Shown here: positions 29,293 through 32,200 of the stretch, one piece after another
Position numbering within the stretch: the stretch's first letter is position 1
Layout of the letters: each line of letters starts with the position of its first letter
NCBI GenBank assembly: GCA_963693365.1
Contig: CAVNZM010000001.1
Location: forward strand, 5,844,907-5,908,906
Direction: 5' to 3'
DNA: 64,000 nucleotides
From: Amoebidium appalachense
Lineage: Eukaryota; Protista; Ichthyosporea
Translations under genes and position numbers: made by a program
Notes under the pieces: generated by a model
Seen by the model: only the letters and a program-made list of their open reading frames with translations
The model's database searches: none
What the model was told of the DNA's origin: nothing

Positions 29293-32200
29293 ATGCGTCC
29301 CCAGCACCAGACCAACCACACCCCCACCAAAGGCAACGCGCTGCAGGCGTGTGTTGCGTCTCTTTTAGAACAGTCTATGGAGGATACCCTCAACTTTATT
29401 GAGGCACCCGATTATATGCAGGTACTGTATGCCTGCACGTGCCCTCCCCACTGCTTGTCCCTTTAATCTTATGCTTCTTGAGTATAGGCGCTGTCTATGC
29501 TTCATATGTTTCCCCCCGTGCACCACAACACATGCTCCACACTGCTTTTCTCGGTACATAGCACTGGGTGCCGCCTTTTCCCCCCGCTTCCTTCCAGCTC
29601 TCTGTCCCGCTCTTAGGCCAGTGTGTTGCCTGGCACTCATTCCCTCAAAAAAAAGCCAACCCCAACCACCCCCCCTCCCCCCCCCCCCCCCCCCCCCCCC
29701 CCCCGCTTCCATTTCATGCATCTTCTCCCCCTTCTTCCCCCCTCCCCCCCCCCTCTCCGCCCCCCCGGGACTCCTTCCCCCACCGTGTACACCTGCTTCC
29801 CCTCCCCCTCCCGCCCCCTTTTTCCCACTTCGTGCATCTGCCTGCTCCCCCCTTCCTCTTCCCCCTCCCCCCTCTTCGTGCCCCCCCCCCCCCCCCCCCC
29901 CCCCCCCCCCCACACACACACACACGGACTTCGTCCACCTGCTTTTCCCTCCCCCCCCCTCCCCCCCGCCACCCACCCACACACACCTTTTCTCCTTCTC
30001 CCCCTCACCTCCACTTCATGCACCCGGTCCCCCCCCCCCCCCCCCTCCCCTCCCGCCCCCCCCCCCCCTCCCCCCTCTTCCCGTTCCGCCCCCACCATCA
30101 CCACCACCACTCCTTCTCCTACCCCCCTCGCCACCACCACCACCAATCCCCCCCCCCCCCCCCCCCCCCCTTCATGTACCTTTTTTTTTACCCTCCCCCT
30201 GCCACCCCTTCCCCCCTTCCCCCACTTCATGCACCTGCTTCCCTCCCTCCCCCCCCCCCCCCCCCCCCCTCCCCCCCCCCACCCCCCTCCCCTCCCTCCC
30301 CTCCCCCGCTCCCCAATCACACACACACACACACACACATTTCGTGCCTCTACTTTTCCCTTACACTCCCCCCCCCCCCCCCCTCCCCCCTTTCTTCCCC
30401 TCCCCCCCACCCCCCCCCCCCACCCCCACTTCGCGCACCTGAAAGCACCCCCTCCCCCAGCCCCTCACTACCCCCCGTCACTCCCGCTGCAGCCTACACT
30501 GCACACCTCTGCACTTCCTCCTTCGCTCTGCCCGCTTTCGTTATCCCCCCCCATATATTTTTCTTGCTTCTGCTTACTGCTGCAACTTTAACCCCCGGCC
30601 TTTCCCACTGCCCTTGCCTGCATAAGCAACCCTGCTCGTCTCTGATCAAGACGGGTGACCTACTCATGTTCAAGTGAAACAGTATCTGAGTTGGGTTTCG
30701 TTAACGAGGGGAATAGGTCGAAACTCGGGTACTGTGGATGACGTGGGCCCCCCCTGAGGATGGGCTCTGCTTATTATGCATCCTCTTTATGTATGGCTTG
30801 CATTCTGCATCGTGTTATCCGTTTGTTCTTGTGTACTTCGTACTTTTTGACGCATTCAAAACCCCCCATATCTTCTCTCAGAGGTGTCCTTTTAGGACAG
30901 ACCACTGTGTGGAGATAGATTCACTCCCATGCAACCGGGCATGGGTGCTCTATGTCGTAACCACGCGAAAAGCATGCTGCAATGCCTTCCCCACACCTGC
31001 ACACACCGTGTTCATTTTTTGTACCGGCCATATTCACGTTTGCACCCGTTCTTGTCTGCCTTGTTAGTTTTTTATGTACATCGTGCCGTCCGGGTGGGTG
31101 GGAATCCGAAAACAGACTAATCCTTGTTCTTATCCAACAGCCGGTTTGCGTGTTCTCATGCAATGACGTCCAATCTATTATTCATGCCGGCTGGGTGGTC
31201 GCCCGGATTAACAAGCACCCCTCTATATCGCTTTCCCCTTTGGGGGGGAGAGAGCGCTCGATATGGTGTTGGCAAATGCGCTCGATTGGCTCCAACCGTT
31301 CTCGGATCTGGCCCCTTCGGTGGAGGTGTGGCTCCACCAAGGGAAACGTTTTCCACACAACGCCACTCTCGCCAACTTAGCCGCAAACACGTGTCTGCTT
31401 TCTACAATGCACACAGCACCTCACATGCTTACACCAACGCCCCTCGCACCATCTCATGGCAACAACTTGCAGGTCCCTACACAAACACCGTCCTGAATCG
31501 CACTCACCCCATGCTTAAACGTCTCTGGCGTCTGCAACTCAAACACTCCCTCACCAAGCATGCACTACATCCTATTCACGACACCAACGTCATCTATGTT
31601 GTGTTTCACAAAACGATTGGCAGGTGCTACGTTGGCGAAACTAGCAAATCCGCTTTTGAAAGATTCCAGCGGCATTCGCAAAATAGTAGAAAATGGGCTC
31701 TTTTCAAGCACAAAGAGCACAACCGTCCACTCTACTGGGATATGGCTAAGTACGGGCACGAGAGCTTCATTATGTTTCCAATCGAACAGCTTCCACGCAC
31801 AAACGCTGACACTGATAAAACGCAGCGTCTCGCTAGGGAACGTTTCTGGACTCACATACTGCAAGCACACGTACCTACTACCGGCTATAATTCGCAATAC
31901 CGAAGCCACCGCCAATCGCGCAATCGTTTTACACGTGTGCACAACCCCATGCTGTATATGCGTGCACGGCTTGCTCTCCACAACACACCCCCTCCTACAC
32001 CCCCTCCACCCTCTCCTGCACCTGCACCTGCACCTTCACTCAACCTGCCTCCTATACACCCCTCACGCATGTTTCTTTCGCGCTGCTTCACACGCCGCCT
32101 ACTGCACATCGATAGTCTTATGTCTCGTGGTATCTTTTCCTCTGCATATCTACACCGCTTTAACACCTCCAACATCGTTAGGATGAAGGAGCACCTCCTT

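What the first reader, a model, noticed from the sequence alone, without database searches (positions are those of the whole stretch)
30612..30780. Candidate new structured RNA (pseudoknot plus tandem G.A motif) in the pseudo-LTR of a hammerhead-less PLE clade
Seen, folded by hand on copy A: P1 ATAAGCA 30622-28 / TGCTTAT 30768-74; P2 CTCGTCT 30635-41 / AGACGGG 30649-55; P3 CTCATGTT 30663-70 / GACGTGGG 30740-47; quartet TGAA 30675-78 / GGAT 30736-39; P4 ACAGTATCTGAGTT 30679-92 / AACTCGGGTACTGT 30722-35; small hairpin TCG-TTAA-CGA; pseudoknot GACCTA 30657-62 / TAGGTC 30714-19. Homologues change sequence but keep pairing. Pseudoknot: GACCCT/GGGGTC (B, 3904-4074 minus) and GACCCA/TGGGTC (C left arm). 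P3: CCCAAGTT/GACTTGGG (B). P4: GTCTGAGTT/AACTCAGAC (B). Inner hairpin: CGTA-TA-TACG (B). Quartet: TGAT/TGAT (B) and TGAA/TGAT (C). GGTCGAAACT and TGAGGATGGGCTCTG are invariant. Known: canonical PLEs carry hammerheads in pseudo-LTRs, whereas N-terminal-EN (Naiad/Chlamys) PLEs were reported to lack canonical ones. Inference: this may be the functional replacement, either a new self-cleaving ribozyme or an RT-binding/3'-end element. The unpaired AACCCT before the pseudoknot loosely recalls telomerase RNA layout, which is speculative.
Basis: partly seen in the sequence, partly recalled or inferred. Interest (0 to 1): 0.9.

Follow-up and report, generated by a model that had tools for sequence, protein, structure and literature searches.

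The report
Core-opened, kinked hammerhead in protist retroelement
The folded RNA at the repeated end of this Penelope-type jumping gene carries every core letter of a hammerhead self-cutting RNA, wired in a knotted order with a kink-turn that I found in no paper, so it is likely the self-cutter that this group of elements was thought to lack (cutting itself is untested).

Summary
It is a hammerhead ribozyme in a non-circular strand order.

- Order: cleavage block (GUU|, predicted cut 30692/30693), then GAAA (30720-23), then CUGAGGA (30754-60).
- Stem II's 5' strand lies about 100 nt upstream of CUGAGGA, so the core is opened between A9 and G10.1. Eckert 2023 assumed that link cannot be interrupted.
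- A hammerhead descriptor hits only copies A1, A2 and B; 0 of 300 shuffled windows match.
- It sits in both pseudo-LTRs of a Chlamys-type element whose ORF is 99% identical to Amoebidium parasiticum transcriptome proteins.
- By eye, 12 of 24 published Naiad 3' ends also fold as non-circular hammerheads; 3 have this split layout, 2 with a k-turn at the same joint.

Against: no cleavage data, only 3 sequence families here, and copy C is degenerate. Earlier unchecked scan notes report the same layout in animal Naiads; none came up for Amoebidium.

The parts
30554..30867 (+). upstream pseudo-LTR (copy A1), preceded by a C run
   Evidence: 314-nt direct repeat, 99.7% identical to 36295-36608
30622..30774 (+). 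split, non-circularly permuted hammerhead ribozyme, copy A1, closed by P1 (30622-28 / 30768-74)
30630..30632 (+). P1b 5' strand CCC, pairs with GGG 30762-64 just after A9-U (inferred; closes the opened 9/10.1 junction)
   Evidence: pairs in A and B; reversed polarity (G4/C4) in a crustacean Naiad (by eye); pair probability only 0.19 in a nested model
30635..30655 (+). P2 hairpin inserted at the 9/10.1 junction
   Evidence: analogous hairpins before stem II in 3 Naiads (by eye)
   Evidence: 6 bp in A, B and C-left with 2 double changes; 30661T>C and 30715A>G at similar shares in runs
30663..30672 (+). [quoted passage not shown]
   Evidence: 30664T>C (U.G to C-G) in 24-56% of depth
30673..30678 (+). 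kink-turn: bulge AGU plus G1b A2b A3b; partner G3n G2n A1n at 30736-38
   Evidence: same pattern in B (GUU/GA/U) and C; k-turn consensus recalled
30679..30692 (+). stem III strand ending U16.1 (30691) and N17 = U (30692); predicted cut between 30692 and 30693 (GUU triplet)
   Evidence: 13 bp with 30723-35 in A, 9 in B
30693..30695 (+). stem I 5' strand, pairs with 30751-53
   Evidence: 3 bp in A and C, 4 bp in B with G-C to A-U at the third pair; 30751C>T keeps G.U
30714..30735 (+). block G: stem II 3' strand (C11.1 = 30719), G12 A13 A14 A15.1 (30720-23), stem III
30751..30760 (+). stem I 3' strand and core C3-A9, CUGAGGA (30754-60)
31163..34327 (+). PLE ORF, 1054 aa: N-terminal GIY-YIG, CxC (CPC 458), DKA, RT; no CxxC anywhere; no in-frame TGA; Chlamys type
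36295..36608 (+). downstream pseudo-LTR (element 3' end) with ribozyme copy A2 (36363-36515), ends at a C run
3905..4063 (-). copy B of the ribozyme (G10.1 4027, U16.1 3992, G12 3959, C3 3925), 79% identical to A
4145..4295 (-). remnant D (ribozyme 3' tail) plus a 39-nt piece like the element's 5' leader, directly upstream of B: a short non-autonomous unit
38384..38536 (-). copy C left arm: degenerate (position 3 = A, stem III broken at pair 3)
38682..38820 (+). copy C right arm, 5'-truncated inside stem II, inverted relative to the left arm

Best explanation
The RNA carries the full hammerhead core in the order cleavage block, GAAA block, CUGAGGA block, with a kink-turn between stem III and the helix that ties stems I and II, and it likely self-cleaves after GUU (30692/30693), with stem II's first strand likely supplied from upstream so that the core is opened between A9 and G10.1. 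SHOWN: the core letters, their order, the three stems, the k-turn pattern and the position in both pseudo-LTRs of a Chlamys-type PLE. INFERRED: (1) stems I, II and III assemble the ordinary hammerhead active site through two pseudoknots; (2) P1/P1b and P2 fill the gap between A9 and G10.1, making a fourth permutation of the SGC/CSG/GCS circle; (3) the k-turn supplies the sharp bend from stem III back to helix I; (4) as proposed for other PLE hammerheads, cleavage in the upstream and downstream pseudo-LTRs cuts unit-length element RNA out of read-through or tandem transcripts (the cut lies 470 nt before the ATG and 175 nt before the element's end); (5) short ribozyme-bearing units are copied in trans like retrozymes.
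For: An all-permutation hammerhead descriptor over both strands of the window returns only A1, A2 and B, all in order S-G-C. Chance: 0 of 20,000 pLTR shuffles and 0 of 60 shuffled windows at stem III >=9; 3 of 20,000 and 5 of 60 at >=5. The split descriptor (I>=3, II>=5, III>=5) hits the same 3 copies, 0 of 300 shuffled windows, 0 of 50,000 pLTR shuffles and 0 places in 361,612 bases of fetched loci. [quoted passage not shown] Type-SGC hammerheads cleave at the predicted site in vitro, and their alignment shows the same U-GACC / GGUC-GAAA stem II letters (PMC10085705). In Craig 2021's Naiad consensi, 12 of 24 3' ends I could see fold by eye as non-circular hammerheads: 7 CSG (all nematode), 2 SGC (Stegodyphus; one with a U3-A8 swap, one with weak stem II) and 3 split. 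In the crustacean split example (record before Naiad_Ppla, by file order Naiad_EuTe) CUGAUGA is followed by C, which cannot pair with C11.1, while an upstream strand makes a perfect 6-bp stem II. Two Octopus examples have the split plus a k-turn at the same joint in reverse orientation, with bulge AGU or AAU. Variants common in sequencing runs mostly keep pairs: 30664T>C, 30751C>T, and 30661T>C with 30715A>G at 4.2/4.1%, 2.4/4.4%, 12.7/6.3% and 1.7/2.8%.
Against: There is no cleavage assay and no raw RNA reads; the runs are contigs and show no start or end site. Stem I is only 3 bp in A, against 5 in published SGC. A nested energy model prefers a rival helix (30634-40 with 30759-65, p 0.58) that would bury G8/A9, and gives P3 only 0.02-0.10 (it cannot score pseudoknots or k-turns). 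Crude geometry: the stem III-core-stem II stack is about 64 A but P3 spans about 28 A with 0- and 3-nt linkers, so a monomer must partly melt P3 (rough arithmetic). Both C arms have A at position 3 and a broken stem III. 30743G>T (16-26%) and 30747G>C (1-3.5%) break P3 pairs, and no partner change is listed. Linkage of 30661 and 30715 is not shown. Core invariance in run X11 is not informative (0 of 13 vs 9 of 96, p = 0.6). No window copy starts at the cut. The Naiad parses are by eye on a set enriched for flagged families; 11 of 24 did not fit, 1 fitted partly, and none of 7 fully shown Chlamys ends fitted. For one canonical PLE, HHR cleavage was not needed for insertion in vitro (PMC11167929).
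Confidence: 0.72

Rival explanations
1. Ordinary contiguous type-SGC hammerhead: stem II is made by GGGCU right after CUGAGGA-U (G30762 = G10.1), and the upstream GACCUA strand is an inhibitory or switching helix.
For: G-C, G.U, GxG, C-G, U-R pairs can be drawn in A, B and C, and a published SGC variant has a mismatch at the third pair. One contig end in run X18 has C at 30718, which improves this register and would mismatch A30658 unless that also changed (unseen); another contig end lacks the G at the 30657-equivalent (one contig each).
Against: Only 2 pairs form before a G.G mismatch, against 6 perfect pairs upstream with 2 double changes. In the crustacean Naiad a contiguous stem II is impossible. 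The GGG has a partner in CCC 30630-32.
Confidence: 0.12
2. A hammerhead-derived fold that no longer cleaves usefully and works as an RT-binding or 3'-end signal, or as a protein (L7Ae/15.5K) landing site through the k-turn.
For: Short stem I, strained monomer geometry, a competing nested helix and degenerate C copies. PLE hammerheads often cleave poorly, and cleavage was dispensable in vitro for one PLE (PMC4209133, PMC11167929).
Against: All 13 core positions are kept in A and B despite 21% divergence and wholesale change of the stems. The same core is kept in animal Naiads with unrelated stem sequences.
Confidence: 0.12
3. SECIS element (tandem G.A quartet over a 13-14 bp helix), as in selenoprotein Naiads.
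For: The UGAA/GGAU quartet followed by a helix of about 14 bp resembles a SECIS core (recalled). SECIS elements occur in four Naiad families (PMC8557442).
Against: The ORF has no in-frame TGA. There is no Rfam SECIS match even at E<=10. It does not explain CUGAGGA, GAAA or stems I and II.
Confidence: 0.02
4. A wholly new ribozyme class or a telomerase-RNA-like template.
For: No Rfam hit at gathering score.
Against: Every conserved letter is accounted for by the hammerhead core, its stems and a k-turn. AACCCT supplies the end of P1 and the P1b strand.
Confidence: 0.02

Closest known systems
Type-SGC hammerhead (HRIMA-1 and variants) and type-CSG; Eckert et al. 2023, PMC10085705 (seen: parts 1-6 of 8 of the text, two supplement searches)
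   Same: Block order S-G-C, the full core, two pseudoknots, a helix ('I') joining stems I and II, and similar stem II letters.
   Different: Here stem II's 5' strand is detached from CUGANGA and lies upstream, with P1 and P2 inserted at 9/10.1; that paper assumes blocks cannot be interrupted. Helix I is joined to stem III on both strands through a k-turn ('k-turn' and 'kink' 0 hits in its supplement). Stem I is 3-4 bp and the I-II linker is a hairpin rather than about 3 nt. [quoted passage not shown]
Type I hammerheads in PLE pseudo-LTRs; Cervera and de la Pena 2014, PMC4209133 (seen: passages)
   Same: Position in both flanking repeats, and the proposed job of cutting element RNA from precursors. 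Dimeric activity is a precedent.
   Different: Those are circular-permutation type I motifs with a minimal stem III; this one has a long stem III and a knotted order.
Chlamys/Naiad N-terminal-EN PLEs; Craig et al. 2021, PMC8557442 (seen: abstract, passages, section 9, supplement parts 1 and 52 and eight supplement searches)
   Same: GIY-YIG before RT, CxC, DK motif, pseudo-LTRs, C-run targets, inverted truncated copies.
   Different: The paper reports no canonical HHR and only notes 'HHR_half_core' in 8 Naiads; by eye 5 of those 8 are complete non-circular hammerheads. No ichthyosporean element appears in the parts I read (the Chlamys sheet was seen only in part).
Kink-turn (Kt-7 / box C/D type; consensus recalled, no call)
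   Same: 3-nt bulge ending in U, then G.A and A.G pairs; 3b.3n = A.G in A and U.U in B.
   Different: Embedded in a hammerhead between stem III and helix I; I found no paper on that combination.
Non-LTR retrozymes; bioRxiv 10.64898/2026.07.22.740005 (seen: passages)
   Same: Short, high-copy, ribozyme-bearing non-autonomous derivatives of PLE pseudo-LTRs.
   Different: Defined there by type I HHRs in animals; here the unit carries the split form.

Membership tests
Hammerhead ribozyme | Core C3 U4 G5 A6 N7 G8 A9 and G12 A13 A14 A15.1, U16.1, H17 | tested here: met
   A1, A2 and B; C has A at position 3
Hammerhead ribozyme | Stems I, II and III adjoining the core | tested here: met
   A: 3/6/13 bp; B: 4/6/9 bp; stem I is short
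Hammerhead ribozyme | Site-specific self-cleavage after NUH | not testable with these tools
   only contig runs available
Hammerhead types I/II/III (circular permutations) | Block order CGS, GSC or SCG without pseudoknots | tested here: not met
   order is S-G-C; Rfam type I only E 2.7
Type-SGC hammerhead (Eckert 2023) | Block order S, G, C | tested here: met
Type-SGC hammerhead (Eckert 2023) | Block C uninterrupted: stem II 5' strand directly after CUGANGA | tested here: inconclusive
   2 bp then G.G if contiguous, 6 bp if upstream; upstream favoured, so probably not met
Type-SGC hammerhead (Eckert 2023) | Helix I pairing the sequence 3' of the stem II 5' strand with the sequence 5' of the stem I 3' strand | tested here: met
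   P3 has exactly these connections under the split reading
Kink-turn | C helix, 3-nt bulge, tandem G.A/A.G, NC helix | tested here: met
   A, B and C; consensus recalled; kinking and L7Ae binding untested
Chlamys PLE | N-terminal GIY-YIG, CxC linker, C-terminal RT | tested here: met
   Pfam GIY-YIG 21.1 bits, below the 22.6 cut-off; CPC at 458, DKA, PMG, YIDD; Pfam RVT_1 did not hit
Chlamys PLE | No CX2-5CxxC linker or CCHH finger (present in Naiads) | tested here: met
   no CxxC in the protein; groups with no-CxxC relatives apart from Naiad-type rows, SH-aLRT 100, quick tree with long branches
Chlamys PLE | Phylogenetic placement among named Chlamys families | not tested
   no named Chlamys protein was available as a tool sequence
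Chlamys PLE | Pseudo-LTRs and (C)n or (CA)n targets | tested here: met
   314-nt repeat; C runs before A1 and after A2 and B
SECIS | In-frame UGA in the linked ORF and a SECIS model match | tested here: not met

The most novel reading that the evidence does not exclude
The core-opened, k-turn-bent hammerhead is an ancient shared device of the whole Naiad/Chlamys clade, from ichthyosporeans to octopus. It cleaves only when two pseudo-LTR copies swap strands into a dimer, or when a host L7Ae/15.5K-type protein binds the k-turn, so it is a natural protein- or copy-number-gated ribozyme that times the release of element RNA.
Probability: 0.2. Interest if true: 0.92.

Novelty: new variant of a known kind. 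Interest (0 to 1): 0.78.

Why it matters
It would overturn the statement that N-terminal-EN Penelope-like elements lack hammerheads: they carry rearranged ones that standard descriptors cannot see. It would move non-circular RNA permutations from anonymous metatranscriptome contigs into eukaryotic genomes, in many copies. It would add a permutation that breaks a link assumed unbreakable (A9-G10.1), and offer an answer to the puzzle Eckert et al. left open of how helix I reaches stem III, namely a kink-turn. All of it can be tested with one 160-nt transcript and a handful of mutants.

Tried and rejected
No genome is held for the window, so I could not collect the many genomic copies.

Pattern scans: 28 viral loci and 41 metagenome loci were all chance matches with no stems.

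Protein-based locus searches found nothing in viral contigs, phages or, with the single protein, genome contigs. The alignment search gave 20 Naiad/Chlamys-like loci in prokaryote assemblies. On their sense strands the contiguous descriptor gave 3 weak matches that I discarded as chance: one inside the L081 ORF, two in AT-rich L087. The split descriptor gave none. A 12-nt match to the 3' core in L074 has BLAST E 0.7-0.8 and no GAAA partner, so I rejected it.

No RNA holder was listed among the sequencing runs; contigs cannot show cleavage ends.

An alternative hairpin pairing 30745-50 with 30762-67 was considered and set aside (p about 0.2; it would strip P3 and P1b), but it is not excluded. 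Two structure energies are invalid (a 2-nt loop in my input) and were ignored.

The tree is the quick version, built from 29 of the 56 homologues (P0002-P0030) plus the window protein. My first attribution of several Craig records to species was wrong because file order differs from the metadata; it was corrected, and names remain inferred from neighbouring headers.

SECIS and telomerase readings were rejected (see rivals). Supplements of the bioRxiv retrozyme preprint are closed and could bear on prior art.

Full report
OBSERVATION. The RNA lies in a 314-nt direct repeat flanking a 1054-aa ORF (30554-30867 and 36295-36608). Related copies are B (minus strand, 79% identical), two inverted C arms and a tail remnant D. 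Folding energy alone is ordinary (z -0.86), and Rfam has no gathering-score hit in the window.

THE ELEMENT. The ORF has GIY-YIG at the N terminus (Pfam 21.1 bits, just under the cut-off), then CPC, DKA, PMG and YIDD, with no CxxC and no in-frame TGA. Of 56 homologues found, the best is 99% identical and is named as an Amoebidium parasiticum EukProt transcriptome protein. So the window is likely from Amoebidium and the ORF is transcribed. In a quick tree of 30 rows it groups with relatives lacking the Naiad zinc-finger linker (support 100, long branches). By the criteria of Craig et al. 2021 (PMC8557442, section 9) it is Chlamys-type; placement among named Chlamys was not tested.

WHAT THE RNA IS. 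The two invariant motifs are the two halves of the hammerhead core in reverse order: GAAA at 30720-23 and CUGAGGA at 30754-60. GGG 30693-95 pairs with CCC 30751-53 as stem I, directly before C3. A descriptor allowing all six block orders finds only A1, A2 and B in the window, all in order S-G-C. At stem III >=9 it matched 0 of 20,000 shuffled pseudo-LTRs and 0 of 60 shuffled windows; at >=5 it matched 3 of 20,000 and 5 of 60. Order S-G-C is the non-circular permutation described and shown to cleave by Eckert et al. 2023 (PMC10085705). They found it only in metatranscriptomes and assumed that CUGANGA is always followed directly by stem II.

THE SPLIT CORE. After CUGAGGA-U, only two pairs form with the strand before GAAA, then a G.G mismatch. 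A descriptor with stem II supplied from upstream hits the same three copies, 0 of 300 shuffled windows, 0 of 50,000 shuffled pseudo-LTRs and nothing in 361,612 bases of loci; it was written after seeing the sequence. In this reading P1/P1b and P2 occupy the gap between A9 and G10.1, and P3 has exactly the connections of Eckert's helix I. The 'quartet' between P3 and stem III is a standard k-turn in A, B and C (bulge AGU, GUU or AGU, then tandem G.A; consensus recalled).

OUTSIDE SUPPORT. I read Naiad 3' ends (about 600 nt each) in Craig's supplement by eye; record names are inferred from file order. Of 24 seen, 7 nematode families are clean type CSG, 2 spider families are SGC, 3 are split like this one, 1 fits partly and 11 do not fit. 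Five of the 8 families flagged 'HHR_half_core' are among the fits. The sample was enriched for flagged families and their neighbours. In the crustacean split case the base after CUGAUGA is C, so contiguous stem II is impossible, and the P1b-equivalent has reversed polarity. The two Octopus cases carry a k-turn at the same joint, in reverse orientation. None of 7 fully shown Chlamys ends fitted.

VARIATION IN RUNS. In 8 contig runs the common variants mostly keep pairs: 30664T>C, 30751C>T, and 30661T>C with 30715A>G at similar shares, though linkage is not shown. 30743G>T and 30747G>C break P3 pairs. No core position reaches 1% in X11, but that is not significant (p 0.6). Two single contig ends in X18 fit a contiguous stem II better. 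No start or end sites can be seen in contigs.

HOW IT LIKELY WORKS. Shown: core letters, order, stems, k-turn pattern and location. Inferred: the pseudoknotted strands build the usual active site and cut after GUU, 470 nt upstream of the ATG in the first pseudo-LTR and 175 nt before the end in the second. That would release unit-length RNA from read-through or tandem transcripts, as proposed for other PLE hammerheads (PMC4209133, passages). One study found cleavage dispensable for insertion in vitro (PMC11167929, passages). Open problems: stem I is 3 bp; a nested model favours a helix burying G8/A9 (p 0.58); and rough geometry (64 A against 28 A) says a monomer must fray P3, whereas a strand-swapped dimer of two copies would not need to. 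Eckert noted the same reach problem for validated SGC RNAs. The C copies look dead (A at position 3).

PRIOR ART. Ten library searches found no paper placing non-circular hammerheads in PLEs, a split core, or a k-turn in a hammerhead; 'type-SGC' with 'hammerhead' occurs in one paper only. Passages of PMC13725137, PMC13159263 and bioRxiv 10.64898/2026.07.22.740005 added nothing on this. Most subscription papers are not in the library. Earlier scan notes (unchecked, seen after my reading was recorded) describe the same split layout in animal Naiads of other genomes. None came up for this sequence, this genome or an Amoebidium/Chlamys word search. One note's claim that truncated copies start at the cut could not be confirmed here.

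VERDICT. A real feature, and a new variant of a known ribozyme kind. Confidence 0.72 for the split self-cleaving hammerhead, 0.12 for a contiguous SGC with an upstream switch, 0.12 for a non-cleaving derivative, 0.02 each for SECIS or a new class. Interest 0.78.

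Noticed in passing
PMC8557442 supplement File S5: By eye, 12 of 24 Naiad 3' ends fold as non-circular hammerheads: CSG in 7 nematode families, SGC in 2 Stegodyphus families (one with a U3-A8 swap), split form in a crustacean and two Octopus families (Octopus with a k-turn). Record names are inferred from file order.
   Followed up: partly
PMC8557442 supplement, record before >Naiad_Sdum (probably Naiad_Ptep): Yet another layout: stems I (7 bp) and III (10 bp) and CUGAAGA are present, but the stem II position is taken by a local hairpin and helix I follows the core directly.
   Followed up: no
PMC8557442 supplement, record before >Chlamys-1_pPol (Physarum-Pp1): The 3' end looks like a type I hammerhead whose loop II holds a GT...AG intron-like stretch.
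   Followed up: no
window 30554-30953 in sequencing runs: Summed contig depth over the pseudo-LTR is 3-4 orders above that over the ORF leader (the tool warns this is no copy number), is intermediate over the next 90 nt or so, and one contig in each of two runs joins 30867 back to 30567. This points to many short, partly tandem, retrozyme-like units.
   Followed up: partly
window 7362-13839 +: LTR retrotransposon: LTRs of about 300 nt, 95% identical, purine-rich tract before the right LTR, ORF 8845-9984 overlapping pol 9945-12914 (RT, RNase H, integrase; Ty3/Gypsy order).
   Followed up: partly
window 24149-27385 +, repeats 21577-22514 / 26790-27742 and inverted 27813-28151: Non-LTR retrotransposon ORF (endonuclease-like N terminus, RT) with a duplicated 950-nt 3' end, followed by (CA)n and a poly(A) run.
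   Followed up: partly
window 34328-36294: The PLE's 2-kb 3' region is mostly C, T and CT microsatellite; unclear whether it belongs to the element or reflects later insertions.
   Followed up: no
window 38870-38990: Tandem repeats of about 24 nt directly after the C right arm.
   Followed up: no
L070-L089: Naiad/Chlamys retroelements sit in 20 loci of GTDB prokaryote assemblies, apparently eukaryotic contamination; L072/L076 are head-to-tail arrays of 3.5-3.8 kb, and L081/L082 look like complete Chlamys-type elements.
   Followed up: partly
Read-laying table 5c, runs X1, X4, X11 at 30721-30731: One contig per run shows TTAGGG-like letters at the stem III/GAAA region; unexplained.
   Followed up: no
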